Notes: generated by a model not told the origin, from the letters alone. Counted from the stretch's first letter, positions 23,950 through 43,003 are shown. The stretch is DNA of 64,000 nt from Candidatus Bathyarchaeota archaeon (GCA_963775685.1 CAVZJV010000014.1:1152001-1216000), one strand, 5' to 3'. Translations and numbers: made by a program.

Positions 23950-24043
23950 TGTCTCTATCTATCATCAGTTGCTTGTTTTTACTTTTGTGGTAGACGGGAA
24001 ATGATTAATAAGACCGAGCCAAACAGTTTTCTATCCGAAACTT

Positions 24044-24349: not shown

Positions 24350-25060
24350 CTAGCGCCGTATCATTTCTTTGATGGTGTCAAGTTTGCTGATTTGGGTTTT
24401 CTTTCGTATTGCCAATCCTGCTGCGGCATATATGGCTCGCATTCTGTCGATGCCTAAGCTCTGAATATCGTGGTAAGTGTCAACCGTGTGTCCCATAAAG
24501 TAGTCAACGTAATCGGGTTGTACACCTAAAGCAAGCATTTGAGTTTTGAAGAATTTGCGAATGCTGTGGACTCTGAGATCATACATGGTTCCAGTTTTGT
24601 TAGGTTTAATGAAGCCTGCCTTGACGTAGAGGTCGTGGACGGTTTTTCTTAGCTGTTTTGTGCTGATGCCTTTGGGTTTTCTGCGGGTTTCATCTATAAG
24701 CCAATAAAACCGCGTGTAGAACACCCAGTTAGCCATAGGGTCTTTTAGCGTTACAAAAGTATCTGTGAAGACTTGGAAAATCTCCAGTATCCTAGCCATA
24801 AAGCGACGATTCGCTGCGTCCACGATTGCTTGGTCGCTTGACGACAGCGGAGTATAAGCGGTTTCCCCCCGTGATAGTGCTTCCTGCATTTCTTCCGCGT
24901 GAGCCTCTAAGATTTGAGTCGCTCGTCTATGTAATTCGGTTTCGGCTCGATCTAACTCTATGTCCCCGTTTTCCCATGTTATTTTAGTTGTACCTTTTTC
25001 GGGAAGTTCAGGCAACACGTTTTTTTCTAATTCATGCAGTCTCTTGCTTAAGATATTCAT
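24350..25060 (-). pseudogene. Chimeric ORF: element protein N-terminus fused to a tyrosine integrase C-terminus
   Basis: First ~126 aa match 40131-40631; then LRVHSIRKFF (HxxR), MGH..DTY (H, catalytic Y); a frameshift near 24356 hides the ALGENPEQLLSREAL tail. Confidence 0.8.
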
Positions 25061-29695: not shown

Positions 29696-30082
29696 ATATT
29701 TGGCTCTTTTGTTTGGGGTTCTGTTTGTAAGTGTTTTCGAAAGGCTTCAAAGAATGGGAAATAAGGAACTGCCGCGGTTTGGTTAAATGCAGTTCTTTCA
29801 AGTTTGTTTTCACAAGTAACGTTTATTTCAGTCTTAGAAACTGTTGCGGAAATATTTTTCTCTAGACACCCTGAAAATTTAGGCAGTTCCAATCCTAAAA
29901 AAGATGTAGTCGCCGTCTGGGCTGTTTAATATTGTATCAAAAACTTCTTCAAACATAGTCTTAACTCAAAGAATTTAGTAGGGAAATGTTCTCCTTTCTC
30001 CAAGACTAAGTTGATCGGTTAGTTTAAGAAGGATATTCCAAAAACGGCAATATAACCCAGGAGGGCAGCAGACAAGTTTTGC

Positions 30083-30385
30083 TTATCTTGCCCAGCAGGG
30101 TCCATAGCCATATCGGTTGCCATAGCCGCCTTGATAGGGAGTTGGAGTTGGAACTGTGCCATCTGTGGGCGCTTGAGGTGCTACATACTGGCTTCCGTAA
30201 CCTTGGTTTACTCCGTAGCCAAAGCAGTTGCCAATCCATCCCCAAAATCCATTGTTTGGAGCTTGATCAGGGCTTGTGGTTGTGTATGGTTGGTTTGCGG
30301 CGATTTGGGCTGAAGCCAACCCAACAGCGACCAAGGTCAGCGCCGCCACAGCGACCAAGGCAAATATAATTTTTGTTTTTTGCAT
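30083..30385 (-). CDS. Small secreted Gly/Tyr/Pro-rich protein
   Basis: Signal peptide then low-complexity GYG repeats ending GPCW. Confidence 0.65.
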   Translation of the reverse strand: MQKTKIIFALVAVAALTLVAVGLASAQIAANQPYTTTSPDQAPNNGFWGWIGNCFGYGVNQGYGSQYVAPQAPTDGTVPTPTPYQGGYGNRYGYGPCWAR

Positions 30386-30767
30386 GTGTTTATCACCATA
30401 TTACCATATGTGCATGGGGGCTTATGGTAATTGGCTGAAACAAAACTGAAACAGTTTTGAAACAGAATTGAACCATCATTTCTGCATTTAATGAGCCCCA
30501 CCTTTAGTTTTTTATCCATCAAAAACAGGTTTTGTGTTTATCTGTTGTACAGTTGACTTTGGGACAATAAATATTGATTTTGACGACATATTTTACGTAT
30601 TGATTTGTATTTGTGTTGAACATTTAGATCCCGAAGCAGGTTTTGGTATGCTTGGGTTATGTGCGAGGGTTTATGTGGCGGTTTACGCACTATGAAGTCA
30701 GAAGAAATATGTCTTAAAAAGACACATTGTATTTCTGCACAACACAACAACAGGAGAAAAACAATAC

Positions 30768-31166
30768 ATGAATAAAAACTGCCAACAACAAGTCCAAACA
30801 AAACTCGCCAAAGGCCTCTTAGACATGATAATTCTGCAATTCCTTGGACACGAGTCCATGCACGGATACCAACTTATCACTAAAATCCGCAAGAGCTTCG
30901 GCGTCTACTTTGGACCAAGCACAATATACCCTTTGCTAGGACTACTGGAGAAAAAGGGATGCGTGAAGAGTGCTTGGAATATGGACTCAGAAAGGCCCCG
31001 AAAAGTATACAGCCTAACTAACGAAGGCAAAAGTCGTCTAAGCTTCACCGAAAGTTCCCTCAACTTAATCTGCAAAAATTTGGAAATCGACAATAAAATC
31101 CAATTAAAGACAGCCTCTATATTTGTCTGTGAGGTAAACGCCTTACATAGAACGCCTCACGTCTAA
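30768..31166 (+). CDS. PadR-family transcriptional regulator
   Basis: GLLDMIIL, MHGY.L, STIYP.L..LEK.G, RPRKVYSLT.EG. Confidence 0.9.
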   Translation: MNKNCQQQVQTKLAKGLLDMIILQFLGHESMHGYQLITKIRKSFGVYFGPSTIYPLLGLLEKKGCVKSAWNMDSERPRKVYSLTNEGKSRLSFTESSLNLICKNLEIDNKIQLKTASIFVCEVNALHRTPHV

Positions 31167-31343
31167 AGTAGGGATTTCGATTATTTTTTAGTTTCTTTAG
31201 CCTTGTGGATTTTCGGTAAAATTACCTGAATCTCTCTTCACTTTCAAATCAGCCCCCACTAGTGAACAAGGTAGTTTTGGGCGACAGTTTAAGAGCCAAA
31301 AACTGCCTTTTGCCATCCTTCAACATTTAGGAGAATTATCAAA

Positions 31344-32169
31344 TTGACTCAAAACTTAGTAGTCAAGCCTTCGCTATCTCAACCAGTTTTTCCATTGAAC
31401 ATAAGAGTTGTTAACGAGGTTTTTCCGGGATTCGCGGTGGGAGATTTTGCAGTTCTACAAGGCCCCGTTTCATCTTTGACATCTCTTTTATGTGTAAGAG
31501 CACAGCTTCCAACTCAATTAGGCGGGTTGAATAGTAATGTCATTTTTATCGACGGGGGGAACAGCTTTAGGCTTTATCAAATTGCCCAGTTAGCCCGGAT
31601 TCATCGCCTTAACCCAAAAAAAGTCTTGGATAACATTTACATTTCAAGAGCCTTTACAGCCTATCAAGTGGCTTCACTCGTTAAGCATTACCTTAAAGAA
31701 ACCATTAGAGAAATACAGCGCTAAGCTTGTGATAATTTAAGATATTGCCGGTTTCTTTCTAGACAAAGATATTCCTGAAGATGAAGCACAAAGAATCTTT
31801 GGTCAAGTAGCGACTTTTCTTTCAAATTTTGCCCGAGAATCCCAAACAATAATCATTGCAACCTACCCACAACACGCGAAGAGGCCAAGAAACGATCTGC
31901 TCCACTACCAAACAACCCGAAAAGCAAACGTTGTATTGTCCTTAAGAAAGACAAGTTACGCCCGGCAGTTTGTACCTAAAAAGCATCCCTATCTTTCCTC
32001 GGGCGTTGCTGAGTTGCCAGTAGAGGACTTGACGTTAGAAGATTTTGTGGAGGCGAATGCTGTTATTCCAGTTTTCGTTACCTGCAAAACGGAAAACGGT
32101 TTAGTTCCATTAACTGACTATGATTGTCTAATTTCTAAATTTGAGGATTCGCAGAAACAAATTGCATAG
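31344..32169 (+). pseudogene. Degenerate RadA/RecA-like protein lacking Walker A, disrupted
   Basis: QLP..LGGL.S.V.FIDGGN.F, I.ISRAFTAYQ; no GKT; stop/frameshift near 31724-31740 with continuation DI..FFLD. Confidence 0.7.
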
Positions 32170-32234
32170 AAACAGTTATGCATTTTCGTCTCAGACTGCT
32201 CCGTATTTCATAGACAACAAACACTCTTTTAATA

Positions 32235-32435
32235 TTAAAGATCGCTTTTGATGCTGTGCAACCGTCGATAAAAAAGCATATCCACAAGCACCAATAATAC
32301 TAATGCGATCAAAACCACAGCCAAGTATTCGGGGCGTCCACTGCCTGTTGAAACACGAATACCCAATTCTATACCATAAACTCCAATGATGATTGTCACG
32401 ATTACGGTTACTAAAAATCCTATTTTTGCGTTCAA
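32235..32435 (-). CDS. Small two-TM membrane protein
   Basis: Two hydrophobic helices, 66 aa. Confidence 0.5.
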   Translation of the reverse strand: MNAKIGFLVTVIVTIIIGVYGIELGIRVSTGSGRPEYLAVVLIALVLLVLVDMLFYRRLHSIKSDL

Positions 32436-32648
32436 AGCGGCTTCTTCTAATATTTACGTTTGCGTTCACTTATTTCTCTTTCTGAATATAAACATTCTAA
32501 GTCTCACAAAGAAGAGGGAAAAACCGATAGGAAGGCTTAAAGAAACAAGTCAATATTAAACTAAAGGAGCAAAGAAATTTGAAAAAACACAGCGACAACT
32601 TATTCACTCTTGACTTTTTCGGAGAAGCTTGGTTTTAGGTGAAAATAT

Positions 32649-32822
32649 ATGAAAGATTTTAAGTGTCCAATATGTGGCGGACCAACTGAAAAGGTTTGGG
32701 AAAACGCAACCAGAACAAGATATGGAATGAGATGCATAAAAGGCCACGAAAACACAAGTAACAAATCAGATGGTTCAAAACAGTACCCGGTAATTCTTGT
32801 TTCAAGTGAAGATCTTGTCTAG
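32649..32822 (+). CDS. CPxCG zinc-finger microprotein (57 aa)
   Basis: MKDFKCPICGG...RCIKGH; GGTGA ribosome-binding motif upstream; below the ORF-track cutoff. Confidence 0.6.
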   Translation: MKDFKCPICGGPTEKVWENATRTRYGMRCIKGHENTSNKSDGSKQYPVILVSSEDLV

Positions 32823-32918
32823 TTAAGAATGGCTGCCTTTTTTGCTGGAAAATACTGCAGGGAAATTGTTATTTGATTTCTGCTGACTTCCGCGTATTTT
32901 GTTATTGATTCTTGCATC

Positions 32919-33911
32919 TTATTTTCGGAATATTGGATCTGGATCGTTTAGGCTGCCATATAGTGCGTGTGCAGATTCTCTGCAGCCTCCCTTGCATTTG
33001 CCAATTTTGTCGCATCCTATGCACATCTTGGGTGTGTAACGCAATTCCACAAATCCTTTGATATAATCGGAGTTTTCATAAATTTCTTTAGGATTTGATT
33101 CCAAACAATTACCCAAAACTTGAGGAGAATGATTGCAAACTCTAAGACCCCCCGAAGGATCGATGGCGCAGTGAATACCTTTTCCTGCCATGCAGCCTTC
33201 TTTAAGAAGGAACTTGTAATTTCGCAATCCCTCAAGACATAACGGTGTTGGAGTACCCACCAGAGCAGGAATGCCATATTCATCACTTGCTTCCTCTGTA
33301 AGATTTAACATTTGCAAAAGCTCATTTTCATTAAAAGCCAAGTCAGTATTCTCTAGTCCTTTTCCACCAGGTAGGAAGCGATTTACCAAAACGGAGTTCA
33401 TGTCCAATCCAGCGGCAAGTGCAATAGTATCTTTTAGTTCAAAAAGGTTTAACCGATTAACGACAACAACAGCCGAGACTGAAACCTTGTAATCCATCAA
33501 GGCTGTTCTTCCCAGAATTGCTTTCTGAAAGTTGCCTATTTTGCCGGTTAGTTTATCATGAGTTGCCTGCAGTCCTTGCAGAGAAATCTGAACGACTTCA
33601 AAGTTCTGGGCTATTTGGCTGGAGAATTTTGATGCGAGTATTCCGTTAGTTAATAGAGAATTTTTAAAACCATTCGCTTTTGCGTATGCCGCTATTTCAA
33701 ACAGGTCTGGGTTTAGGAGGGGTTCTCCGCCGGAAAAACCCAGGGTATCTACGCCCCATTGTTTTAGTTTATCGATAATGGAAAAAAAGGAGGTTTTTGA
33801 GAGAACTTTTTCTTGGGGGTACTGGTGTTTGTTGGAGGTTCGCCAGGCGTTGTAGCAGAATTTGCATGCGGCATTGCATGAGTAGCCGACTTCCAAGATG
33901 ACGAATTTCAA
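32919..33911 (-). CDS. Radical SAM/SPASM protein (rSAM-3)
   Basis: CNAACKFC, SGGEPL, SPASM CMAG..C.IDP.G..RVC and CIGC-x5-CKGGC. Confidence 0.92.
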   Translation of the reverse strand: MKFVILEVGYSCNAACKFCYNAWRTSNKHQYPQEKVLSKTSFFSIIDKLKQWGVDTLGFSGGEPLLNPDLFEIAAYAKANGFKNSLLTNGILASKFSSQIAQNFEVVQISLQGLQATHDKLTGKIGNFQKAILGRTALMDYKVSVSAVVVVNRLNLFELKDTIALAAGLDMNSVLVNRFLPGGKGLENTDLAFNENELLQMLNLTEEASDEYGIPALVGTPTPLCLEGLRNYKFLLKEGCMAGKGIHCAIDPSGGLRVCNHSPQVLGNCLESNPKEIYENSDYIKGFVELRYTPKMCIGCDKIGKCKGGCRESAHALYGSLNDPDPIFRK

Positions 33912-34199
33912 TTAGCACTTCGCCTGAAGAGCAGCGATCTCTTTTAGGTGGGCTTCAAAGTGTGTGATGGCAACCTTGGCAAGTTTCGGGTCTAGTTTTT
34001 TGTTTTCAGCGAGTCGTTTTATTATGTTGATGCGTTCATTGAGGTGTTTCGCTATTACCCAAGGATGAGGGTCGGGTTCAGCAACGACCGTTTTGGCGAT
34101 TTCTGCATGATCAATTCCTTTGTTTAGGACTAGTTCCCACATTGGCGGAAAATAACAGATTGGCGGGCGGATGCGTATTCTATCAAAATTTTCGCTCAT
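33912..34199 (-). CDS. Small protein abutting rSAM-3, candidate substrate or partner
   Basis: Stop codon directly adjacent to the rSAM-3 start; PPICYFPP and EPDPHPW motifs. Confidence 0.65.
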   Translation of the reverse strand: MSENFDRIRIRPPICYFPPMWELVLNKGIDHAEIAKTVVAEPDPHPWVIAKHLNERINIIKRLAENKKLDPKLAKVAITHFEAHLKEIAALQAKC

Positions 34200-34867
34200 A
34201 AAAACCGCGTTAAATAAAATGCTTCATCTAAATATTAAAGCTTGAGGTTTCCGATTTCTTGATTGCAACCAAGCTCGATAAGTTAAACTCTCAAAGTGAT
34301 AGCCCTGAATTTTAACATGCCTCCTAAGGATTGGAAAGTCAATTCAGTTTTTGGTTTTAGTTCACTTTTGTTTGTTCATACATCATTGAGACGGTTATGC
34401 GTTTTCGGCTGAGACTACTGCAGATTTCGTTATTTATTCTTGTATCTTCTCTACCTTTGCTTTGCGTAATGAAAAAGAACGAATTTCCAGTTCTTCATTC
34501 TCCTCTAATTATCTGAGGGATAACTTGCTGAGCTGTAGACGGGTATTTTTGTATTGGAAGCTTTAAGCTTGCATATGGAAGTTCCACGGTTACTCGAGTT
34601 TTCCACCTCACATGGGGCATCTTCTCTTTATTGTATTTGAATTGTTGGAAGTTGGAGCGAGAAGTAGAAACAGAAGTAAATCTGGCGTTTTTATAGCAAT
34701 AGAAGCCACTGACAATGTTTCTGCCGCAACTGTCGCAAGGACATAGATAAATCAACCATAAAATTCGTTAACTTATCGTTCCTCGATTTTAAAAACAGCA
34801 TATTAAGGAAAATGGCTATTTTGGTTAGCTAACCGTTCTATTTGTGTTTGAGGCTTTTTAGAATAAT

Positions 34868-36068
34868 CTAAAAGATTGGTTTTATTTTTGAAAATAGGTA
34901 TTCTTGTAAGTTCGGCTGAAAAATATCTTGATTCTCAAAATAATTTTCTGCATAACACCCTCCAAGATAATCTCCTGCTATTCCTTTTTTTGAACAAGCA
35001 GACCGTAGCTTTAATCCAGAAACAAAGTCTAAGCGGCTATTTAAATTATAAATACCGTATTTAGTATCACCAAGTTTGGATAGTAATTGGCGATTATTCA
35101 AAGCTAAAACCCTACCACAGGCTGATATTTCTCCATTTGTATTCACACAAATCCGGCTTGTACCCGCTTCACAAACAAAAGAATTACTTTTTTTTAATTG
35201 CTCATGTTCGCCAATTTGTATGTCCCCACTTAACTTTATGTCGTTGCGCGACGAGTTTTTGTACCACATATACAATTTTTCTAAATTATGAACAAATTTT
35301 TCTCGGTCAATTAAAGGCCATTCCACACCGGTGGCATGCCCGATGATAAAGTCATTTACGCCTAACTTGTAAAGCCCTAAGACATCATCATATAGATTGG
35401 GAACGTTTTGGGGGGATACTGTCATTTTTGTGCCAATCCAGGGCTGACTTTCTTTTAATAATTGCATGTTTTTTATAGCTTTTTCGAAAGTACCTCTTCC
35501 AGATTTATCAATTCTGAATCTGTCATGAGATTCTTTTAAACCATCAATACTCAAAAGAACTTTAATTTTATGGGAAGAGAAAAAATCTGTCATTTCGTTA
35601 TTCAACAATAGGCCATTGGATGTCATGTCAAATTCAATTGATTTTTGTCTAACTGCAGCCCTCTCTTCGGCATAAATAGTTATTTCTTTTATAAGATCAA
35701 ATTCAAGAGTTGGTTCTCCTCCAAAAAAGAGAATAGTTAGATTCGTTTCATTTGCAGAATAATCAAGAAGAAGGTCTACAGCAGATTTAGCGATTGTTTT
35801 TTCCATGGATTCAGATGTTCTACAATTTTTTTCAAAACAATATTTGCAGGCTAATTGCACCTATTTGTTAGAATCAAGTCAAGTTTTGTTATAGGTGGAA
35901 AAATAGAAGAATTTGTATATAATATAATTTTGTAGAGTAATCTTTGACTTTCTTCGGATGAAATTCCTAGCTCCTCTCTTAATTTGCATATTAAGTCGTT
36001 CGTATCAGGAGAAGAACCAGCAAAAAACTCCTAGAAATCTGTTCGATAAAAAGTTCTCTGTCTATCAT
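34868..36068 (-). pseudogene. Radical SAM protein (rSAM-2), two apparent frameshifts
   Basis: LDLILTNRCN|LACKYC restores CxxxCxxC with one added base near 35853; second break near 36031; FFGGEPT, TSNG, SIDG..HD..R motifs. Confidence 0.82.
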
Positions 36069-36085
36069 GAATTAGATCTAGCCAT

Positions 36086-36298
36086 CTAAGGATGTAGTTT
36101 GTGGGTATAAGCATCGCTTGAGCACTTGTGAGGAGCCACGCAGTTATATACGTTCGAGCATTTGAATTTTAGAGTACACTTAAAGCCAAGAGCTCCGCTC
36201 TCCGCGATAGCCTTGACCGTTTCATCAGAACTCCCTATCTTTGCTGCAATACTTTTGGCAATTTTTTCTAATTCTTCCTCAGAAATTTTTTTTGACAA
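36086..36298 (-). CDS. Cys-rich candidate RiPP precursor (70 aa)
   Basis: Helical leader ISEEELEKIAKSIAAKI; core FKC-FKC-YNC-HKC with strict C-x5-C spacing; between rSAM genes. Confidence 0.8.
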   Translation of the reverse strand: MSKKISEEELEKIAKSIAAKIGSSDETVKAIAESGALGFKCTLKFKCSNVYNCVAPHKCSSDAYTHKLHP

Positions 36299-36302
36299 TG
36301 TC

Positions 36303-36536
36303 TTACCTCATAAGTTTTTTTGTAAACCCAGTAAAGCTATTCGAGCATTCAAAGTCATCACTACAAGAAAACAAACTAGCTTGGCAAGTAAAAGAACTAG
36401 CGTCACATGTATACTTAGAAGGTGTGTTACATGGGGTTGGTAATTCGCCTGCACGAAGGGCAACTGTTCCAATTTTTCCTTTTAGTTTCTCTGCAACTCT
36501 CGAAGCTATACGGTCAATTTCTTCGTCGGAAAGCAT
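36303..36536 (-). CDS. Cys-rich candidate RiPP precursor (77 aa)
   Basis: Leader LSDEEIDRIASRVAEKL; core YTC-FTC-FSC-FEC; ATG 36536 follows GGTGA. Confidence 0.8.
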   Translation of the reverse strand: MLSDEEIDRIASRVAEKLKGKIGTVALRAGELPTPCNTPSKYTCDASSFTCQASLFSCSDDFECSNSFTGFTKKLMR

Positions 36537-36788
36537 TTTTCTCACCTTTAATGTTAATCTTAATTAATTTATCTCATCCTTGACTTTAAGGAATTGTTGT
36601 TGTAAAAGCACAGTCACATCGTCTTTTATCTTTAATCGTATTTATTATGAAACAGGTCGTGCGGTTTTATCGAAGGCTACGGAGAAGAAAACGTAGAGAG
36701 TGAAGAAATTGATCCAAAAGGTTTCAGCTGCTTTGAAGAGGGCAAAGAAAAAGGGAAGGGAAAAGGCCTTACCTAACTCTAAGTAGCA

Positions 36789-37370
36789 CTAGGCACCTTT
36801 TCCTATTTCATTGGCTACGTCTTTGAGTTGTTTCTTAACTATATTGCGCATTTGGACCTCGCTAACTATTATTCCACTCTCTTTTGCAACAGCATCAGCT
36901 AAAGTAAGACCTATCGCGGCACTCATGGCAGCATTAATAACCGCTTTAGAAACCTTGTTTGCGATCTTATCAATTGACGAAGTAAAGTCACCATTATCAC
37001 ACTTATCACATGCTGGAGTGGGACCTGTACCACACGACCAACATGCTGGAGTGGGACCTGTACCACACGACCAACATGCTGGTTGAGGGCAATCTTCTGC
37101 TACAAGAGTCTCGCCGAAAGCTTGATTTAACCATTCCACATATTCAGGCATCGTTTTTTCAACGGCTTCATGTATGGCTGATTGCAGTTTTGTATACATT
37201 TGAGGATCAATCTTTTCAATTGAAGGGCTCCTCGAAAGGAGTTCCCGAAAACGTTTACTTTGCGCTTCAGTGAGTTTTTTAGCAGAAACTTTTGAGACCG
37301 ATTTTTTTGTTGAACGAGAAACACCTTGTCTTTTTAATTTTGCTTTAAGCGCTTTTTTAACTTTTGCCAA
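36789..37370 (-). CDS. 193-aa protein with internal Cys-rich repeat, candidate rSAM substrate
   Basis: Lys-rich N-terminus, CPQPACWSCGTGPTPACWSCGTGPTPACDKC core, then SIDKIANKVSKAV. Confidence 0.72.
   Translation of the reverse strand: MAKVKKALKAKLKRQGVSRSTKKSVSKVSAKKLTEAQSKRFRELLSRSPSIEKIDPQMYTKLQSAIHEAVEKTMPEYVEWLNQAFGETLVAEDCPQPACWSCGTGPTPACWSCGTGPTPACDKCDNGDFTSSIDKIANKVSKAVINAAMSAAIGLTLADAVAKESGIIVSEVQMRNIVKKQLKDVANEIGKGA
37008..37082. repeat. Perfect 33-bp tandem repeat (~2.3 copies), in frame
   Basis: ACATGCTGGAGTGGGACCTGTACCACACGACCA x2 plus ACATGCTGG; encodes PACWSCGTGPT on the minus strand. Confidence 0.95.
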
Positions 37371-37563
37371 AAATAATCACTAATATGACCTATGAAATGT
37401 CAGTTATTTATATTTATTGTTAATGCAACCTGCTCCAGAAATCAGGCTGCCGACCCTTCAATTTTTGGCTTCTATTGAATAACTTTACTGATTCTAACGT
37501 CAGCGTTCTTTATCGAAATCATTCAAAACAAATCCTTGAAGCAAAACGTTAGAGAAGGCATTG

Positions 37564-39048
37564 TTAGAGTTTGCGTTGTATTCGCTTCCGATTCTTTCTT
37601 TTGGAACTATTTTGTGATTTTGTTAGAAAATCATACGCCAATAACAATTTCAAAATTTCATTTTGGAAAGCACAGAAATAGTCTTCTTTTATGCCTAATT
37701 GACCAGTTTTGATATAGACATCGTATGCGCATGCACCACCGCATATTCCAAGTGCAGGGCAATTCATACATTCTTTGTTCTTTAGAGTCCCAAATTCAAA
37801 CCATTTATAAAAAAGTGGTTCTTCTTGAACTTTTAAATCATCTTTAATTGGAATTTGATATTTCCCCGACGGGTAGAAGGCTTGGCAAGGTCCAATTGTT
37901 CCTGAGGGAGAAAAGAATATTTGCTGACCAAATGCCGGGCAATCATATACGTGGAACATCTCTCTAAAGAAATATCTCGCCCTTCGCTTGTCTATCCGAT
38001 CTTCAAACATATGCAATTCTTTTGCTTTTAAGTACGCCTTAAAGAGATGATGAGCAAGTTGTTTTGGATCTGGCACTTCGAATTCAGTAGAGTCCTTGAT
38101 TCTAGTAAGCAAGTTAAAACCTAAACTCTTAATTCCCAATTTGTGAAAGAAATCTACTATTTCCTCCGCATATTCATAGTTCTGCTTGGTAATCGTGCAG
38201 GATATTCCCACATTTACGCTAGCTTCATTCAAGAGAGTTAGAGCTCTGAGTGTAGAATTGAAGGTTTCGATTCCTTCAGTAAAAACACGATTCCTATTAA
38301 TTCCATACCAACCATCAAGAGATAAGCCAACACTAACATTGTTTTCTTTAAGTTTTTTCGCTAATTCCTTCGTTACAAAGCTTCCATTCGTTACGCATGA
38401 AAAGGTAAACTTATTCTTGACTGCCCTCTCAAGCCTTTCGATTATATAAAAGATGATTTCGCTACTACTAAGAGGTTCACCTCCGTAAAATGTGACTTTG
38501 TACTCCTTAACTTCTTTTGCTGCTGTAATCAGAGCATTTATGACTTTGTCGGCTACCTCCTTAGACATTTTTACGCTCGGTCCTTTAAGAGAATTCTCTA
38601 TGAAGCAATAGCCGCATCTAAAGTTGCAGTAATCCGTTACTAAAACGTAGGATAGAAATGGAGACGGCGTCTTTCTAAGCATTTTGTCTGCCAATGTGCA
38701 AAAAACTCTCTCTCGATCAAAGCTTTGGGGCACAATAAATTCGAGATTAAGTAAGCTCTTTACAGATTCGCTAAGGCTATCCGTAGCCAGACCGGTTAAT
38801 ACAGAGATATATTCATCATTTTTTAGGTATACTTTCTTTAACGTCAAAGAATGGAAAAGACACTTCGTATCGTCATTTATGTTAAATATGTGAACGAACG
38901 GAGAAAACGTTAATTGATCAGATCCTTCTCGATGCGATTGCTCAATTGTCGCCTTTGCATTCAAAAGAGAACCATGATCTTTCTTAAGTTGCTTTTTGCT
39001 CGAGTTAGAAAGCGGAAAAGAAACCACCATGAATTCCAAAACCCTCAA
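37564..39048 (-). CDS. Radical SAM/SPASM peptide-maturase-like protein (rSAM-1) with N-terminal extension
   Basis: CNFRCGYC, FYGGEPL, SLDG, SPASM CPAFG..GPC and CMNC-x5-CGGAC..FC; ~130-aa N-terminal extension; true start may be downstream. Confidence 0.92.
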   Translation of the reverse strand: MRVLEFMVVSFPLSNSSKKQLKKDHGSLLNAKATIEQSHREGSDQLTFSPFVHIFNINDDTKCLFHSLTLKKVYLKNDEYISVLTGLATDSLSESVKSLLNLEFIVPQSFDRERVFCTLADKMLRKTPSPFLSYVLVTDYCNFRCGYCFIENSLKGPSVKMSKEVADKVINALITAAKEVKEYKVTFYGGEPLSSSEIIFYIIERLERAVKNKFTFSCVTNGSFVTKELAKKLKENNVSVGLSLDGWYGINRNRVFTEGIETFNSTLRALTLLNEASVNVGISCTITKQNYEYAEEIVDFFHKLGIKSLGFNLLTRIKDSTEFEVPDPKQLAHHLFKAYLKAKELHMFEDRIDKRRARYFFREMFHVYDCPAFGQQIFFSPSGTIGPCQAFYPSGKYQIPIKDDLKVQEEPLFYKWFEFGTLKNKECMNCPALGICGGACAYDVYIKTGQLGIKEDYFCAFQNEILKLLLAYDFLTKSQNSSKRKNRKRIQRKL

Positions 39049-39256
39049 ATTATTAAAAGTTTTCCCAAGGTTCTTAAAGCAATTTCAGTTATGACAAATG
39101 CAGTTTTCGATTACTTTTCCTTCTATCATATTTTTTCTTTGAAAATCCTCAAGAGGCAGAGAACCGCTAAACCGCTTCTCCAACTTTACTTCATTTAGAG
39201 TATAGCTACCTATACCACACTTAGTGACCGAAAACTATCCGCTTGGTCCCAACGTT

Positions 39257-39766
39257 TTACAATGTCAAAATCCGTAACTTGTAACCCTCCAGTTTCAACT
39301 TTTCAAAGATGCGTTTCTGATCAGCCTCATCTCTACACTCAATTATTATCTCATAGGTTCCAGGGATAGATACCGGAATCTCATGGTCATCCAAATCCTC
39401 AGGAATTTTCTCGCCGACGGATTCAAGGAGCGACTTCAAATCTTCTTTTTCGCCTTGTTCAATTATGCGCAGATATTCGGCGCTGTCCAACTCTTTGTTG
39501 TGTTTACCCCTTAGCTTGTTGAGCACCTGCCGCAGAAGCCGGCGATCAACATCTTTAACTGGCAAGCGAATGACGCTGCACTCAGTCATGCCAAGCTCCT
39601 TCATAGCGGTAACACGCTGCTGCCCATCTGCCACCAAAAGCTCACTGTTGGTGACGACGGGAACGATGTCCCCCCATCGCTTAATTGAAGCTTTCAAGCG
39701 GTCAAGCTGCGCCAAGCTCATCATGTTAGGATTGTCTTGGTCAAACTTGAGATCGCTGATTTTCAC
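39257..39766 (-). CDS. ParB/Srx N-terminal domain protein (virus-associated type)
   Basis: I.DLK....NPN.M, L..SI.RWG...PVV, VADGQQR..A..ELG. Confidence 0.8.
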   Translation of the reverse strand: MKISDLKFDQDNPNMMSLAQLDRLKASIKRWGDIVPVVTNSELLVADGQQRVTAMKELGMTECSVIRLPVKDVDRRLLRQVLNKLRGKHNKELDSAEYLRIIEQGEKEDLKSLLESVGEKIPEDLDDHEIPVSIPGTYEIIIECRDEADQKRIFEKLKLEGYKLRILTL

Positions 39767-39959
39767 TGCGCTCCGACATGGGAATCGGAATTTCTTTTCG
39801 ATTTTCGCTCGGTTTCACTTGCTCGGTCACTCATATTTTCAGATTCTCCGTAACGTTTTCTGTTGTCAGCAATTGGTTAATTTGGACATTTTGGGATATT
39901 TTCTTAAACCAGTCGCACTGGTTCCGCACACGTCGGACATTTTTCTTTAAGGTAACGTG

Positions 39960-40631
39960 CGTTACGTGCGTCAGTCTCCGCGTTTTCCGCTTGTTTCTTG
40001 CTGTTCTTCTAACTCTTCTTGCCTAGCTTGCTCGGGTGTCCTGTTAGCGATAAACTGTTGAATGTCCTCGGTTGTTTTGAAAACGTGATGTTGGTCACAG
40101 TAGCGTTGAAAACTCTCAGGAGTAAATAGGTCATGGTTCCAAGTTTGCATAAACGGGAGCTAAACGCCTTTCCTGTTCGCCTTCGCATAGTTCCCAATAG
40201 CCAGGCGTGTTAAAGACTGCTTCTTCCGCGTCAAATTGCTCTTTGAACTTGCGGGTTTCTTCTATAAGCCAATAAAACCGCGTGTAGAACACCCAATTAG
40301 CCATAGGGTCTTTATACGTTACAAAAGCATCCGTGAAGGTTTGGAAAATCTCCAGTATCCTAGCCATAAAGCGATGGTTGGCTGCGTCCACAATTGCTTG
40401 GTCGTCTGAAGATAACGGGATATAAGCGGTTTCTCCCCGTGATAATGGCTTGCCTGCATTTCTTCTGCGTGAGCATTGCAAGATTTGAGTTGCTCGTCTA
40501 TGTAATTCGTTTTCGGCTCGATCTAACTCTGTGTCTCCGTTTTCCCATGTTATTCTTGTTGTGCCTTCTTCGGGAAGTTCAGGTAACACATTTTTTTCTA
40601 ATTCATGCAGTTTCCTGCTTAGAATGTTCAT
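39960..40631 (-). pseudogene. Element hypothetical protein, frameshifted (paralog of 24350-25060 N-terminus)
   Basis: ORF 40131-40631 continues past a frame break near 40140 (WNHDLFTPESFQRYC...); a short off-frame patch versus copy 1; end approximate. Confidence 0.62.
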
Positions 40632-41113
40632 TTCTTCTTATCCTCCGGTTTCGGTATTAATATGCTGTTCTTGAGCTTCTCCTCTAACGTTAACACCCGA
40701 AGCTCCAACTCCTCATCCTTTAGCAAGGGACCGTAGGCTGAGACTGCTGAAACTAAAACTCTTGCCCAACCCTGCTTAGCTCGGTCACTGTTTCCGCCTG
40801 TATGAATTTTTTTGTGGGACAGGCTTAATACACCGTCTAAAACGCGAAATAACGTGTTTCTGCGATCCTTTGTTGAGCGGTTTGATGTTGGTTTCTTCGC
40901 AGCTTCAGCCATAGCTCACACCTTCTTCTCTCCCTCGTGCTCTTTGCTTACGCTTCGCAAGCCGCCAATACTCACGCAACTCAGCCGAATGCTTAAAGCT
41001 CTTGCAATTGTCCATGACAAATGCTGGTTCAGTTGAACCATTTAAAAACAGAATAATAATTGTAAGAATGCCAAGTCAGAAGTTAGAAGAGAGGGCAAGT
41101 TACAGCAGAAAAA
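40250..41113. repeat. Diverged direct repeat copy 2
   Basis: Aligns to 24682-25548. Confidence 0.88.
40628..40912 (-). CDS. Element-encoded hypothetical protein (paralog of 25057-25341)
   Basis: 94-aa near-identical paralog. Confidence 0.75.
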   Translation of the reverse strand: MAEAAKKPTSNRSTKDRRNTLFRVLDGVLSLSHKKIHTGGNSDRAKQGWARVLVSAVSAYGPLLKDEELELRVLTLEEKLKNSILIPKPEDKKK

Positions 41114-41284
41114 CAGTAGAGTCTTTTTCCTTAGCGCGCTTACCGCTTTTTCCAGAGCTGCCTACACGAAATAGCCCTATCTTAAAAAAGCCCTTATAAG
41201 AATTAACATATAACATAGGTACGAATCCATCGAACCCGCCAATCTACGGTTTTCCCGCCTCTTTATATCAAACAATCGTTTTAA

Positions 41285-42275
41285 TTGAGTATTGAGAACC
41301 CAAAGTCTGTATGCTTCTCAACAGCAGAATTGAAGCTGAGGATGGTGTTTGGCATGATAGAGACTGAGAACCTTACCAGAAAGTTCGGGAACCTAACTGC
41401 GGTCAACAATCTAACCCTTCGCGTAGACGAGGGTGAAGTCTTCGGTTTACTTGGACCCAACGGGGCAGGAAAAACCACCACGGTGAGAATGTTCTGCTGC
41501 CTGATATCTAAGACAAGCGGCACTGCCAAGGTTGGCGGTTACGAGGTCGGCAGTGAAGAAAATGCCCGGAAGATTAGAAAAATCATCGGGCTCGTCCCAG
41601 ACAACGTAGGGCTCTACGAATCGCTCACTGCCTACGAAAACCTGGACTACTACGGAACACTTTACAGGCGAACTGACACCCAGCGCAAAGAAAGCAATGA
41701 GTACTTCCTGAAGCTGCTTGGGCTTTGGGAGAAAAGAGACGTTCTTGCGGGAGCATTCTCCAAGGGAATGAAACAGAAGCTCGCTATAGCCCGCGCTAGT
41801 CCACGACCCCCAGATAATTTTCATGGATGAGCCGACTGCAAACCTCGATCCCGAATCCGCTAAAAAAGTGAGGGAATTCATTCTCTCCCTGAAGAAGGAA
41901 AAGAAAACCATCTTCCTCAATACGCACAACCTCGATGAAGCCCAGAGAATCTGTAATAGAATCGGTATCTTAAATACCCGCCTGATGGCAGTGGGCTCCC
42001 CTCAAGAACTCGAACAATCCATCCATGGAAGGAAGACGGTGATCCAGCTCAGACAAGTGAACGAAGCGATTCTGGATTCCCTCAACCGACTCAAAATAAA
42101 GAACTTGGTTCGGGAAGGTAACAAGTTAACTGTCGATGTCGCCAATCCCCAAGAGGAGAACCCAGAAATGATAAATGCAATTGTTAAGGCTGAAGGACGC
42201 ATCGAGACGGTAACAGTGACTAGCAGTTCGCTGGAAGACACGTACTTGAAACTAGTAAAGGAGAACCCCCAATGA
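41285..42275 (+). pseudogene. ABC-2 type exporter ATPase, single frameshift near 41797
   Basis: GPNGAGKTT, FSKGMKQK, then ARA|LVHDPQIIFMDEPT across frames; likely start near 41341-41354. Confidence 0.88.
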
Positions 42276-43003
42276 CCGCTTGGTTACCATGGAAGATAGC
42301 ACAGAAAGAACTCAAAGTAATCAGACGAAAGAAAAGCATTATCTTCTATACTGTTGGGCTTCCCCTCCTAATCGCAATTGTTTTCTCACTTGTCCTTAAG
42401 AGCCAAACAGCCAACGGAATTCCTAATACAATCGCACTAGGCGCTGACTCAATCGTTTACCTCTTCGTTATTTTAGCAACAGTCCTTCCCAGCACGATTG
42501 CAGCATACAGCATAGTGGGGGAAAAAGTCGAAAAGACATTGGAACCGTTGCTGGCGACTCCGACGACTGATGGCGAGATTCTGCTGGGAAAAAGCATCGC
42601 CGCCTTCATACCGCCTATTCTGTCCACATGGACAGGGGCATCAATCTTCATGGCAGCAACGGACTATTTCTTGCACAATCCAGGGTTAGGCTACTACTAT
42701 TTTCCCAACTGGAACGCCGGCGTTATGCTGTTGCTTCTGGCGCCGCTTGCAGCGGTTCTTAGTATTGAAGTAGCAGTGATTGCATCCGCGCGGGTAAGCG
42801 ATGTTCGGGGTGCAAACCAGATTGCAGGTCTCATGTTTATTCCGTTTGTCGCTGTCTTCTTTGTGGGAGTCGAAGGGATTTTCTCATTCAGTATCGGTAA
42901 CCTATTGATCTTCGCCGCCGTTGTTTTGATCGCTGACATAATTCTGTTCTTCTTAAGTAAATCTACATTCAAGCGAGAAGAGATACTAACAAAATGGAAG
43001 TAG
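42272..43003 (+). CDS. ABC-2 type exporter permease
   Basis: KELK, SIVGEK.EKTLEPLLATP..D.EILLGK, about six TMs, FKRE.IL. Confidence 0.9.
   Translation: MTAWLPWKIAQKELKVIRRKKSIIFYTVGLPLLIAIVFSLVLKSQTANGIPNTIALGADSIVYLFVILATVLPSTIAAYSIVGEKVEKTLEPLLATPTTDGEILLGKSIAAFIPPILSTWTGASIFMAATDYFLHNPGLGYYYFPNWNAGVMLLLLAPLAAVLSIEVAVIASARVSDVRGANQIAGLMFIPFVAVFFVGVEGIFSFSIGNLLIFAAVVLIADIILFFLSKSTFKREEILTKWK

What the first reader, a model, noticed from the sequence alone, without database searches (positions are those of the whole stretch)
32919..39048. Candidate new archaeal RiPP system: three radical SAM/SPASM enzymes with aromatic-X-Cys repeat precursors
Seen: one strand, order rSAM-1, 193-aa, 77-aa, 70-aa, rSAM-2, gap, 95-aa, rSAM-3, in an AT-rich part of a mobile island. 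Ten Cys residues across three small proteins have F/Y/W/H two residues upstream (WSC x2; YTC, FTC, FSC, FEC; FKC, FKC, YNC, HKC). Known: rSAM/SPASM maturases make Cys thioethers (sacti-/ranthipeptides) or three-residue cyclophanes on aromatic-X-X motifs (triceptides); archaeal examples are poorly characterised. Inference: a multi-precursor, multi-maturase pathway installing serial crosslinks, possibly aryl-Cys three-residue rings. I do not recognise a named family and cannot confirm novelty without a search.
Basis: partly seen in the sequence, partly recalled or inferred. Interest (0 to 1): 0.9.

Follow-up and report, generated by a model that had tools for sequence, protein, structure and literature searches.

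The report
Three separate radical-SAM peptide-modification cassettes
A soil archaeon carries side by side three independent gene sets, each a radical-SAM enzyme next to the small cysteine-bearing protein it probably cross-links; none fits a named family, and one set belongs to a widespread, undescribed peptide family with a strict cysteine-to-aromatic spacing.

Summary
They are not one pathway. They form three separable modules in a Bathyarchaeia genome.

- **Module A (36729-39153):** rSAM-1 plus a 193-aa Cys-repeat protein. The pair recurs in 25 of 27 related loci, always without the other genes.
- **Module B (34865-36567):** 77/80-aa and 70-aa precursors plus rSAM-2, which is PapB-like. It recurs alone in one congener.
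- **Module C (32927-34256):** a 95-aa protein plus rSAM-3. It recurs alone in three congeners.

The aromatic/Cys periodicity is real only in module B. Its precursor family (30 representative hits) matches no Pfam or NCBIfam model. C-x3-5-aromatic describes it better: 42 of 42 last Cys versus 23 of 42 first Cys. The Trp in the 193-aa protein is not conserved.

No enzyme reaches a curated family cut-off. rSAM-2 carries two 1-nt deletions in this assembly. A short-read contig contradicts one of them.

The most likely function is serial Cys thioether cross-linking, which is untested. I rate it a new variant of a known kind, of moderate to high interest.

The parts
36729..39153 (-). Module A block: rSAM-1 and the 193-aa protein with short flanks. 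This is the unit shared with a related genome.
   Evidence: blastn shows 94.8% identity over 2440 nt to L011 5895-8330, with unrelated sequence on both sides.
37564..39048 (-). rSAM-1, 494 aa: an N-terminal extension of about 130 aa, a radical-SAM core (CX3CX2C at 38605-38628) and a full SPASM motif (CX2CX5CX3C at 37729-37770).
   Evidence: Pfam Radical_SAM 73.7 bits. The best NCBIfam hit is FibroRumin TIGR04136 at 180 bits against a cut-off of 400. The nearest solved structure is CteB 5WGG, E 4.8e-23.
36789..37370 (-). 193-aa Cys-repeat protein, the candidate substrate of rSAM-1. It has a basic N-terminus, a conserved helical leader-like region (about residues 30-90), two CWSCGTGPxPA repeats plus CDKC, and a helical C-terminal region.
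   Evidence: A homologue starts within about 300 bp downstream of the rSAM-1 homologue in 25 of 27 loci. Only 9 relatives were found among 5.8 billion clustered proteins. The alignment is A1. The AF2 model is poor, with mean pLDDT 44.
37008..37082 (.). Perfect 33-bp tandem repeat, 2.3 copies, that encodes the duplicated PACWSCGTGPT units.
   Evidence: Tandem Repeats Finder reports 100% matches.
34865..36567 (-). Module B block: two precursor genes plus rSAM-2.
   Evidence: blastn shows 74.5% identity over 1722 nt to G381 (L045 8475-10153). Flanks differ.
36303..36545 (-). 80-aa precursor (77 aa from the ATG at 36536). The leader reads S-D-E-E-I-x-x-I-A-x-x-V-A. The core has 5 Cys, each followed 4-6 residues later by Tyr or Phe, and ends in F-T-G-F.
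   Evidence: The G381 orthologue is 54% identical.
36086..36298 (-). 70-aa precursor with the same leader type. The core is GFKC-x5-C-x5-C-VAPH-x-C-x4-Y, with 4 Cys spaced every sixth residue.
   Evidence: The G381 orthologue is 47% identical.
34868..36068 (-). rSAM-2 (PapB-like, about 400 aa if read through). In this assembly it is interrupted by two 1-nt deletions, near 36030 and near 35855; the second lies inside the CX3CX2C motif. The listed ORF is 34868-35860.
   Evidence: A short-read contig of run X3 has an extra G after 36030 that restores the frame there; the second site is not covered. NCBIfam PapB NF047865 scores 202 bits against a cut-off of 340. The SPASM 4-Cys motif is reduced to C-x12-C.
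34485..34766 (.). Conserved element of about 285 bp, overlapping an 86-aa Cys-bearing ORF at 34495-34755 (-). It also lies near module B in G381, but on the other side of the module.
   Evidence: blastn shows 70.9% identity to L045 11788-12069. The alignment is A8. There is no Pfam hit and no Rfam hit. Its function is unknown.
32927..34256 (-). Module C block: the 95-aa protein plus rSAM-3.
   Evidence: blastn shows 78.6% identity over 1332 nt to G369 (L051 8161-9491). Flanks differ.
33912..34199 (-). 95-aa partner of rSAM-3. The N-terminus is invariant and modelled as disordered (FDRIR-x-R-x-PICYFPP-x-WELVLNK, with one conserved Cys). The C-terminus forms a helical hairpin.
   Evidence: It lies directly upstream of rSAM-3 in 4 of 4 genomes that have it, with two tandem copies in G461. 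The alignment is A6. The AF2 model has pLDDT below 50 for residues 1-16 and helices at 46-65 and 71-94.
32919..33911 (-). rSAM-3, 330 aa, with no N-terminal extension. It has CX3CX2C at 33855-33878 and a full SPASM motif at 32982-33023.
   Evidence: Pfam Radical_SAM 67.3 bits. The best NCBIfam hit is GeoRSP TIGR04303 at 109.5 bits against a cut-off of 400, followed by NirJ, AhbD and PqqE. The nearest structures are SkfB 6EFN (E 2.8e-12) and PqqE 6C8V (E 1.9e-11).

Best explanation
The region holds three independent, horizontally shuffled modules. Each pairs a radical-SAM enzyme with the ribosomally made peptide or small protein that it most likely cross-links. They happen to lie next to each other in this Bathyarchaeia genome.

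**Module B**
- It is a minimal cassette of precursors plus maturase, similar in layout to SCIFF.
- An acidic helical leader (S-x-E-E-I-x-x-I-A-x-x-V-A) is proposed to dock on the roughly 60-aa N-terminal domain of the PapB-like rSAM-2.
- The enzyme is proposed to join each Cys sulfur to the aromatic residue 4-6 positions downstream, most likely at its benzylic beta carbon. This would give a ladder of 4-5 small thioether rings per core.

**Module A**
- rSAM-1 acts on the variable-number Cys repeats of a family of 140-193-aa proteins with a long conserved leader-like N-terminal region.
- This resembles the way CrpC cross-links the Cys-repeat protein CrpA.
- In most relatives a B12-radical-SAM enzyme and a leader-methyltransferase fusion add further steps. 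The window copy lacks both.

**Module C**
- rSAM-3 binds the C-terminal helical hairpin of the 95-aa protein and modifies its invariant, disordered N-terminus.

**Shown:** gene pairing, separability of the modules, motif conservation and family distances.
**Inferred:** every chemical step, leader docking in modules A and B, and which residues are linked.
For: **Separability**
- 25 of 27 close rSAM-1 loci have a homologue of the 193-aa protein starting within about 300 bp downstream. One more (L035) has it about 2.5 kb away, and L029 has none. None of the 27 has the 80-aa, 70-aa or 95-aa proteins, and none has a close rSAM-2 or rSAM-3.
- DNA identity to the 94%-identical relative L011 ends about 60-100 bp outside module A on both sides.
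- Module B was found in 2 of 401 class genomes and 2 of 120 genus genomes (G000 and G381). In G381 it has no module A or C beside it.
- Module C was found in 4 of 120 genus genomes, always as the 95-aa gene directly upstream of rSAM-3.
- The module A precursor family was found in 22 of 120 genus genomes, usually in several copies.

**Module B motif**
- In 27 homologous precursors, 159 of 184 Cys have F, Y or H at -2. The shuffle mean is 26.7 and the maximum over 1000 shuffles is 41.
- In 42 Cys runs, the last Cys has an aromatic at +4 to +6 in 42 of 42 cases. The first Cys has one at -2 in only 23 of 42.
- 9 of the 17 metagenome loci examined, out of 80 fetched, have such peptides beside the rSAM-2 homologue. 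Among loci at 40% identity or more the count is 6 of 7.

**Enzyme affinities**
- rSAM-2 best matches the PapB model (202 to 228 bits) and the CteB structure (E 1.9e-29).
- 4 of the 6 'catalytic proximity' positions of CteB are identical. This is my reading of the alignment against the positions named in PMC10288494.

**Module A**
- The repeat number varies from 1 to 5 units.
- The common repeat contains C-x-x-[D/Q/E]. PMC13692751 reports a C-X-X-Q/D motif for CrpA and CrpB.

**Module C**
- The complex model scores ipSAE 0.82 against a best control of 0.00. In the tool's calibration, 58 of 80 solved complexes and 2 of 110 mismatched pairs reached the mark; because my own alignments were used, these counts hold only roughly.
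- The runs agree in at least 42% of contacts, and the partner's pLDDT is at least 59.
- Residues 53-81 of the 95-aa protein contact rSAM-3 residues 114-170 and 212.
Against: - No chemistry was tested.
- No enzyme reaches any curated family cut-off.
- The rSAM-2 family keeps only 2 of the 4 Cys of the SPASM motif. Its auxiliary-cluster content, and therefore a PapB-like mechanism, is uncertain.
- I know of no precedent for a beta-thioether to an aromatic residue, and my searches found none. The opposite pairing (aromatic-x-C) still fits 166 of 190 Cys.
- The precursor homologues were found with a profile built from motif-bearing sequences, so the family-wide motif count is partly circular.
- The window's rSAM-2 may be a pseudogene, because the second frameshift is unresolved.
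- Adjacency of three rare modules on one strand in an AT-rich stretch could still reflect co-selection. In G461, modules A and C lie about 17 kb apart on one contig.
- The 193-aa protein has no confident fold. Its CxxC and CP motifs could instead bind metal.
- No dedicated protease or exporter is conserved with any module.
Confidence: 0.7

Rival explanations
1. One reading: the seven genes form one pathway in which three maturases act in series on several precursors.
For: - All genes are on one strand within 6.1 kb of AT-rich DNA.
- Each module is rare in the genus: 22, 2 and 4 of 120 genomes. Only G000 has all three.
Against: - Each module occurs without the others elsewhere and has unrelated flanks.
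- The gaps between modules are 243 and 668 nt, against 0-17 nt between genes within modules B and C.
- The leaders of the 193-aa protein, the 70/80-aa peptides and the 95-aa protein are unrelated to each other.
Confidence: 0.08
2. Module B makes three-residue rings on aromatic-x-Cys. The link would be either a triceptide-like C-C bond from the aromatic ring to the Cys beta carbon, or an aryl-sulfur bond. It would not be a Cys-to-downstream-aromatic thioether.
For: - F, Y or H stands two residues before 166 of 190 run Cys.
- The allowed set F/Y/H matches, from my recall, the aromatic set of three-residue cyclophane motifs.
Against: - The first Cys of a run lacks the upstream aromatic in 19 of 42 runs, while every last Cys (42 of 42) has a downstream one.
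- Cyclophane-maturase models score far lower than PapB on the listed ORF: YhhB 78, FxsB 62, AmcB 62, GrrM 57 and XyeB 54 bits against 202.
Confidence: 0.2
3. The small Cys proteins of module A are metal- or Fe-S-binding proteins, or their CxxC/CP repeats form disulfides. rSAM-1 would then be a neighbour with another substrate.
For: - The repeats read C-P-x-x-x-C-S-x-C, which looks like a metal ligand set.
- PMC13692751 notes that many archaeal Cys-rich proteins are predicted to bind metal cofactors.
Against: - The pairing with rSAM-1 is tight: 25 of 27 loci directly adjacent.
- The repeat number varies from 1 to 5.
- Genomes carry several copies.
- The leader-like region also occurs fused to a methyltransferase in the same cassettes.
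- rSAM-1 has the N-terminal extension typical of peptide maturases: NCBIfam maturase models align from about residue 47.
Confidence: 0.12
4. Module B is a decaying remnant in this genome. rSAM-2 would be a true pseudogene and the two peptides would go unmodified.
For: - There are two 1-nt deletions within 175 nt, one of them inside CX3CX2C.
- GC is the lowest of the three modules, at 0.349.
Against: - An independent short-read contig (run X3, 180 nt, 1 mismatch) carries the missing base at the first site.
- The assembly shows other single-base frame breaks, such as the ABC ATPase at 41285-42275.
- 7 of 27 related long-contig MAG loci have a split rSAM-1, which fits indel errors.
- The rest of the gene is open for 330 codons.
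Confidence: 0.25

Closest known systems
PapB/PapA (freyrasin) ranthipeptide system, NCBIfam NF047865
   Same: It is the best-scoring curated model for rSAM-2 (202 bits for the window ORF, 228 for the intact G381 orthologue). The precursor has serial, regularly spaced Cys, each with a fixed partner a few residues downstream. The comparison with PapA's C-x3-D repeats is from my recall.
   Different: The score is below the cut-off of 340. The partner residue is aromatic (F/Y/H), not Asp. The spacing is x3 to x5. The SPASM 4-Cys motif is reduced to two Cys. The leader is unrelated to any curated precursor model.
CteB/CteA and the SCIFF two-gene system (PDB 5WGG/5WHY; TIGR03974)
   Same: It is the nearest solved structure for rSAM-2 (E 1.9e-29) and rSAM-1 (E 4.8e-23). 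It is a minimal precursor-plus-maturase cassette among housekeeping genes, as seen at L061. The SCIFF layout is from my recall.
   Different: TIGR03974 scores 125-138 bits against a cut-off of 425. The core motif differs. Two of the six CteB proximity positions differ (H-Q becomes G-R).
CrpA/CrpC of Methanococcus voltae (TIGR04463; Dieter et al. 2026, PMC13692751)
   Same: It is an archaeal SPASM radical-SAM enzyme beside a protein-sized substrate that has a conserved N-terminal leader-like part and repeated Cys motifs containing C-x-x-Q/D. Ranthionine cross-links were shown by MS. The common repeat of module A contains C-x-N-[D/Q] and C-P-x-[E/Q].
   Different: rSAM-1 scores 109.6 bits against a cut-off of 525. 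The substrates are shorter (140-193 aa, 1-5 repeats of 11-12 residues) and have a helical C-terminal part. The window variant (CWSCGTGP) lacks the D/Q. At 3.6% Cys, the 193-aa protein would fall below that paper's 10% Cys filter; this is my inference.
Three-residue cyclophane (triceptide) maturases: XyeB, YhhB, GrrM/OscB, FxsB, AmcB
   Same: The substrate motif can be written aromatic-x-X, and the aromatic set includes His. The triceptide motif is from my recall.
   Different: All models score 54-94 bits against cut-offs of 310-450. Position 3 is always Cys. The run-end statistics favour Cys-to-downstream-aromatic pairing.
PqqE/PqqA, MftC/MftA, SkfB/SkfA and GeoRSP (short SPASM enzymes acting on small peptides)
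   Same: rSAM-3 is a 330-aa SPASM enzyme without an N-terminal recognition domain. Its best matches are GeoRSP, NirJ/AhbD and PqqE, and the SkfB and PqqE structures. It sits beside a small conserved protein.
   Different: All scores are below cut-off: GeoRSP 109.5/400, PqqE 96.5/381, MftC 83/265. There is no separate PqqD-like gene. The partner is 95 aa with the conserved candidate core at its N-terminus and a predicted C-terminal docking hairpin.

Membership tests
Radical SAM superfamily (PF04055) | Pfam gathering score reached and a CX3CX2C cluster motif present | tested here: met
   Scores are 73.7, 42.9 and 67.3 bits against a cut-off of 29.5. CX3CX2C is present in rSAM-1 and rSAM-3. In rSAM-2 the motif is split by a 1-nt deletion in this assembly but is intact in the G381 orthologue.
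SPASM subfamily | C-terminal CX9-15GX4C plus CX2CX5CX3C (seven-Cys pattern; the definition is from my recall) | tested here: met
   This holds for rSAM-1 and rSAM-3: both motifs were found. Pfam SPASM itself gave no hit at E <= 0.01.
SPASM subfamily (rSAM-2) | CX2CX5CX3C motif | tested here: not met
   Only C-x12-C stands at that place. The two middle Cys are absent in the window, in G381 and in the 18-member family consensus. CX9-15GX4C is present.
PapB family ranthipeptide maturase (NF047865) | NCBIfam curated cut-off of 340 bits | tested here: not met
   The window ORF scores 202.0 bits. The intact G381 orthologue scores 227.7, and three other family members score 204-226.
PapB family ranthipeptide system | Precursor with repeated C-x3-D (recalled) | tested here: not met
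   The cores show C-x3-5-[F/Y/H], not C-x3-D.
SCIFF maturase (TIGR03974) | Curated cut-off of 425 bits | tested here: not met
   rSAM-2 scores 125-138 bits and rSAM-1 scores 90.6.
TIGR04463 (CrpC family) | Curated cut-off of 525 bits | tested here: not met
   rSAM-1 scores 109.6 bits and rSAM-2 scores 71-76.
FibroRumin system maturase (TIGR04136) | Curated cut-off of 400 bits | tested here: not met
   rSAM-1 scores 180.4 bits. This is its best hit and covers residues 48-463.
Three-residue cyclophane maturases (XyeB TIGR04496, YhhB NF041707, GrrM TIGR04261, FxsB TIGR04269, AmcB NF041718) | Curated cut-offs of 310-450 bits | tested here: not met
   rSAM-2 scores 53.5, 78-94, 56.8, 61.7 and 61.6-79 bits respectively.
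Three-residue cyclophane (triceptide) precursors | Repeated aromatic-x-X motif whose aromatic ring is linked to the beta carbon of residue 3 | not testable with these tools
   The motif aromatic-x-C is formally present at 166 of 190 Cys. The bond itself needs MS or NMR.
PqqE (TIGR02109), MftC (TIGR03962), GeoRSP (TIGR04303) | Curated cut-offs of 381, 265 and 400 bits | tested here: not met
   rSAM-3 scores 96.5, 83.2 and 109.5 bits.
RiPP system in general | Leader or follower recognised by the enzyme, core modified, then released | tested here: inconclusive
   Conserved leader-like regions and variable cores are seen. The predicted docking passed its controls for module C only. No conserved protease or exporter was found. 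Modification and cleavage were not tested.

The most novel reading that the evidence does not exclude
Module B represents an undescribed class of radical-SAM RiPP, spread across bacteria and archaea. A PapB-related enzyme with a reduced SPASM domain would install a ladder of cysteine-to-aromatic cross-links, most likely a thioether to the benzylic carbon of Phe, Tyr or His 4-6 residues downstream. That bond type is not known from sactipeptides or ranthipeptides.

Modules A and C would add two further new substrate architectures:
- a leader / Cys-repeat / helical-tail protein family whose leader is also fused to a methyltransferase;
- a precursor with an N-terminal core that docks through a C-terminal helical hairpin on an enzyme lacking a recognition domain.
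Probability: 0.35. Interest if true: 0.8.

Novelty: new variant of a known kind. Interest (0 to 1): 0.6.

Why it matters
- **New cross-link chemistry.** Radical-SAM peptide maturases are a main source of new cross-link chemistry. A precursor family with an almost invariant Cys/aromatic register points to a specific, testable bond that is not in the curated catalogues. Across 27 homologues, 159 of 184 Cys carry the aromatic at -2. In the 42 Cys runs of these plus the window's two peptides, every last Cys has a downstream aromatic.
- **Tractable hosts.** Database names on enzyme homologues include cultured bacteria such as Bacillus toyonensis and Pelotomaculum propionicicum, so the chemistry could be studied outside an uncultured archaeon.
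- **Protein-sized substrates.** Module A extends the recent finding that archaeal radical-SAM enzymes cross-link protein-sized Cys-repeat substrates (PMC13692751) to Bathyarchaeia. It adds an unusual fusion of the leader-like region to a methyltransferase.
- **Caution for genome mining.** Adjacent maturase genes need not form one pathway.

Tried and rejected
- **One pathway.** Rejected on synteny.
- **Conserved Trp-x-Cys in the 193-aa family.** Rejected, because most homologues have Ser at that position.
- **C-terminal Cys of the 95-aa protein as a modification site.** Rejected, because it is not conserved in 4 orthologues.
- **Pfam DHquinase_II and NCBIfam dehydroquinase hits on the 193-aa protein.** These are below cut-off (18.4/23.3 and 16.5/130) and were ignored.
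- **AF2 model of the 193-aa protein.** Mean pLDDT is 44, so no fold search was made.
- **AF2 model of the 95-aa protein.** It is a generic helical hairpin, so no fold search was made.
- **ESM Atlas search** with a family B precursor (P0255) gave no usable hit.
- **Rfam** on 30000-42000 gave no match at E <= 0.1.
- **Sequencing runs.** No RNA holder was listed, so nothing can be said about expression. The runs laid (X1, X2, X3, X5) are short contigs with small shares, and 35837-35958 was not covered.
- **Literature.** Eight searches found no paper on these families.
  - The Hudson et al. 2019 ranthipeptide mapping paper is not in the library, so I could not compare its precursor groups.
  - I saw the abstract and sections 8 and 12 of PMC13692751, and only found-term passages of PMC10288494.
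  - All other papers I saw only as search listings.
  - Supplements are closed. Figure S3, Table S4 and Supplemental Data set 1 of PMC13692751 may list related radical-SAM-associated Cys-rich proteins, and I could not see them.
- **Catalytic-proximity profiling.** It was done only against CteB, with a +3 numbering offset that I inferred. No PapB or sactisynthase comparators were available.
- **Taxonomy.** It rests on the record titles of relatives. One locus, L012, is labelled Candidatus Sulfotelmatobacter, which is probably a binning error; I did not check this.

Full report
**What is in the sequence**

- rSAM-1 (494 aa)
- a 193-aa ORF
- an 80-aa ORF, or 77 aa from the ATG at 36536
- a 70-aa ORF
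- rSAM-2 (listed ORF 330 aa)
- a 668-nt gap
- a 95-aa ORF
- rSAM-3 (330 aa)

All three enzymes pass Pfam Radical_SAM. The ten aromatic-x-Cys sites are exactly as listed. For the 70-aa and 80-aa proteins, 8 of 9 Cys carry the motif, and none of 100000 shuffles reached this. GC is 0.35-0.42 here against 0.43 for the window.

Three corrections to the observation:
- The two W-S-C sites of the 193-aa protein come from one perfect 33-bp tandem duplication.
- rSAM-1 and rSAM-3 have the full CX2CX5CX3C motif, but rSAM-2 has only C-x12-C there.
- rSAM-2 is frame-broken in this assembly.

**The state of rSAM-2**

The text 'KLDLILTNRCN' followed by a stop lies in one frame and 'LACKYC' in the next. An intact 401-aa orthologue exists in a congener, G381. 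Aligned to it, the window gene (34868-36068) has two single-base deletions, near 36030 and near 35855. The second lies inside CX3CX2C.

A 180-nt short-read contig from run X3 has one mismatch to the window and carries an extra G after 36030. From the sequence, this restores the frame and removes the in-frame TAG. The second site is not covered by any contig laid.

Other signs point to indel errors in these assemblies. The ABC ATPase gene at 41285-42275 is also split, and 7 of 27 related MAG loci show a split rSAM-1. So assembly error is likely at the first site, but a true pseudogene is not excluded.

**Organism**

Of the 27 close rSAM-1 loci from the genome collection, 26 are titled Candidatus Bathyarchaeota MAGs. 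One, L012, is titled Candidatus Sulfotelmatobacter. The window lies on a 2.47-Mb contig of a 3.06-Mb genome that is 97% complete.

**Three modules, not one cluster**

*Module A.* I ran tblastn with all seven proteins against the 27 close rSAM-1 loci.
- A homologue of the 193-aa protein starts within about 300 bp downstream of the enzyme in 25 loci.
- In L035 it lies about 2.5 kb away, and in L029 there is none.
- None of the loci has the 80-aa, 70-aa or 95-aa proteins or a close rSAM-2 or rSAM-3. Only cross-hits among radical-SAM cores appear, at 33% identity or less, apart from a 60-residue segment at 48% in L035.

In L011 the enzyme is 94% identical to rSAM-1. Its DNA identity to the window covers only 36729-39153 and stops on both sides. 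There the neighbours are contractile-sheath, tube and AAA genes and a B12-radical-SAM gene.

*Module B.* Window 34865-36567 matches G381 at 74.5% identity with different flanks. G381 has the two precursors and the enzyme but neither of the other modules at that locus.

*Module C.* Window 32927-34256 matches G369 at 78.6% identity. The 95-aa gene directly precedes rSAM-3 in all four genomes that have it, and G461 has two tandem copies.

*Counts.* Numbers include G000.

| Module (query) | Genus, of 120 genomes | Class sample, of 401 genomes |
|---|---|---|
| A precursor family | 22 | not searched |
| B | 2 | 2 |
| C | 4 | 2 |

Only G000 has all three modules. In G461, modules A and C lie about 17 kb apart on one contig.

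**Module B in detail**

The two peptides share a leader, S-[DE]-E-E-[IL]-x-x-I-A-x-x-[IV]-A. Their G381 orthologues keep every Cys and every aromatic of the core. A profile of the four sequences found 30 proteins at E <= 0.001 among 1.84 billion representatives. Many of these fuse a '70-type' core (G-[YF]-x-C ... Y-[ND]-C-[VI]-A-P-H-x-C ... Y) to an '80-type' core (C-D-A-[ST]-S-[FY]-x-C ... F-x-C-x-N-K-F-T-G).

For the motif count I left out two long proteins that match the leader only (P0259, P0260) and the window's own sequence (P0251). The remaining 27 gave these results:
- 159 of 184 Cys have an aromatic at -2 (F 84, Y 56, H 19, W 0).
- The shuffle mean is 26.7 with SD 4.5, and the maximum over 1000 shuffles is 41.
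- Cys spacing is 6 residues in 85 cases and 7 in 40.

The periodicity makes 'aromatic-x-C' and 'C-x3-5-aromatic' nearly equivalent, so only the ends of runs discriminate. In 42 Cys runs from 29 precursors:
- The last Cys is followed by an aromatic at +4 to +6 in 42 of 42 runs.
- The first Cys has an aromatic at -2 in 23 of 42 runs.
- Over all run Cys, the counts are 182 of 190 against 166 of 190.

Two caveats apply. The +4 to +6 window is three positions wide, and the homologues were found with a motif-bearing profile. No Pfam or NCBIfam model matches ten of these precursors at a meaningful level.

The enzyme family is broad. 304 proteins matched at E <= 1e-20, and the best 120 listed are typically 44-52% identical. 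The source names on them span bacteria and archaea. Of the 80 metagenome loci fetched, I examined the first 17. Nine have such peptides beside the enzyme, and 6 of the 7 loci at 40% identity or more do; the miss has only 194 nt upstream. At L061 the neighbours are COQ7, DsbB, SpoU and LeuA-like genes, so the cassette is just peptide plus enzyme.

The best curated model is PapB (202-228 bits, cut-off 340), followed by QhpD, CcpM, nif11 and SCIFF. Cyclophane formers score 54-94 bits. The nearest structure is CteB. At the six CteB 'proximity' positions named in PMC10288494, my reading of that alignment gives F, F, T, S identical and H-Q replaced by G-R.

I therefore favour serial thioethers from each Cys to the downstream aromatic residue. 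The geometry is like PapB's C-x3-D, which I recall rather than tested. The benzylic beta carbon is the most plausible site. All of this is inference.

**Module A in detail**

Only 9 relatives of the 193-aa protein were found among 5.8 billion clustered proteins. The genome itself has further copies.
- One lies in a full cassette at C14:460-465 kb. That cassette runs: rSAM-1 paralogue (67% identical), a 140-aa precursor, a B12-radical-SAM enzyme (529 aa), a second frame-broken precursor, and a 367-aa protein in which the leader-like region is fused to a class-I methyltransferase.
- This layout recurs widely: the B12 enzyme family is present in 23 of 28 loci analysed.

The family has a conserved region (K-L-T-x-x-Q ... 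D-P-x-x-Y-A-K-L-Q-S-x-I ... P-E-Y-x-x-W-L-N). It is followed by 1-5 repeats, commonly C-P-x-[EQ]-[LI]-C-S-[SA]-C-x-N-[DQ], and then a helical tail. The window and L011 variant reads C-W-S-C-G-T-G-P-x-P-A.

The common repeat contains C-x-x-[D/Q/E]. Dieter et al. point out a C-X-X-Q/D motif in CrpA and CrpB of Methanococcus voltae, where the SPASM enzyme CrpC installs ranthionine links on a protein-sized substrate (PMC13692751). rSAM-1 is not a CrpC-family member (109.6 bits against 525). Its best model is FibroRumin (180 against 400). Relatives at 35-48% identity are fused to GNAT domains, and some at about 30% identity to methyltransferases. The AF2 model of the 193-aa protein is unreliable, with pLDDT 44.

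**Module C in detail**

rSAM-3 is a compact SPASM enzyme. Its nearest matches are GeoRSP, NirJ/AhbD and PqqE models, all below cut-off, and the SkfB and PqqE structures.

The 95-aa partner is invariant at residues 3-27 and has a single conserved Cys. Its C-terminal Cys in the window is not conserved. The AF2 model gives residues 1-16 pLDDT below 50, and a confident helical hairpin at 46-94.

The complex prediction supports binding but does not show it.
- The score is 0.82 and the best of 3 controls is 0.00.
- In the tool's calibration the mark was reached by 58 of 80 solved complexes and 2 of 110 mismatched pairs. My own shallow alignments were used, so these counts hold only roughly.
- The runs agree in at least 42% of contacts, and the partner's pLDDT is at least 59.
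- The hairpin (residues 53-81) sits on rSAM-3 residues 114-170 and 212. The N-terminus is left free.

I read this as a substrate docked by a C-terminal 'follower', with the core at the N-terminus. The reaction is unknown.

**Comparison and novelty**

The kind of system is known: a radical-SAM enzyme that cross-links a ribosomal peptide or protein. Membership in every named family I tested fails on the curated score, and for PapB also on the substrate motif. Eight literature searches gave no description of these families. The ranthipeptide mapping paper of 2019 and all supplements could not be consulted.

I rate the finding a new variant of a known kind. Module B is the most interesting part, because its conserved register predicts a specific new bond and the family is widespread.

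Noticed in passing
G000:C14:460568-465983 (locus L009 7575-12983): A second, fuller copy of module A lies in the same genome. It runs: rSAM-1 paralogue (67% identical), a 140-aa precursor, a B12-radical-SAM enzyme (529 aa), a frame-broken second precursor, and a 367-aa protein that fuses the leader-like region to a class-I methyltransferase. Further precursor copies lie at C7:31511-31996 and C5:19179-19502. The C5 copy sits beside a degraded rSAM-1 copy with many stops.
   Followed up: partly
window 41285-42275: An ABC-transporter ATPase is split into two overlapping ORFs of 181 and 150 aa, followed by an ABC-2 permease at 42272-43003. This is another single-base frame break in the assembly, or a pseudogene.
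   Followed up: no
window 34485-34766 and L045 11788-12069: A stretch of about 285 bp is conserved at 71% identity near module B in both genomes, but on opposite sides of the module. It overlaps an 86-aa Cys-bearing ORF with no Pfam or Rfam match.
   Followed up: partly
L011 8984-12002 and 621-2441: In the closest relative, module A sits next to contractile-injection-type genes: a sheath (PF04984/PF17482), a gp19-like tube (PF06841) and an AAA ATPase with a weak, sub-cut-off CIS_tube hit (21.9 bits against 27). A 606-aa B12-radical-SAM gene lies on the opposite strand.
   Followed up: partly
window 23062-25060, 30768-31724, 39257-39766: Several mobile-element-like or fragmentary genes flank the modules: a DNA methylase, an integrase-like fragment below the Pfam cut-off, a PadR regulator, a 126-aa Rad51-domain fragment and a ParB/GmrSD_N-like protein below cut-off.
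   Followed up: no
proteins P0064, P0065, P0070, P0073-P0076, P0080, P0099, P0125: More distant relatives of rSAM-1 are fused to other domains: GNAT acetyltransferase domains at 35-48% identity, or methyltransferase domains at about 30% identity. This suggests that tailoring enzymes recurrently join this maturase clade.
   Followed up: no
G461:C10:150944-171706: In one congener, module A genes (150.9-154.0 kb) and module C (two tandem 95-aa genes plus rSAM-3, 170.1-171.7 kb) lie about 17 kb apart on the same contig.
   Followed up: no
L012 (DATGZD010000010.1): A 10-kb contig carries a typical module A plus another radical-SAM gene and is filed under Candidatus Sulfotelmatobacter, an acidobacterium. 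All 26 other close loci are Bathyarchaeota, so mis-binning or transfer is possible.
   Followed up: no
window 45232-48106: An M3 oligopeptidase F-like gene (595 aa) and a BacA undecaprenyl-diphosphatase gene lie about 6 kb from rSAM-1 on the other side. They were not searched for at relatives' loci, so nothing links them to the modules. L011 shares DNA with the window only across 36729-39153.
   Followed up: no
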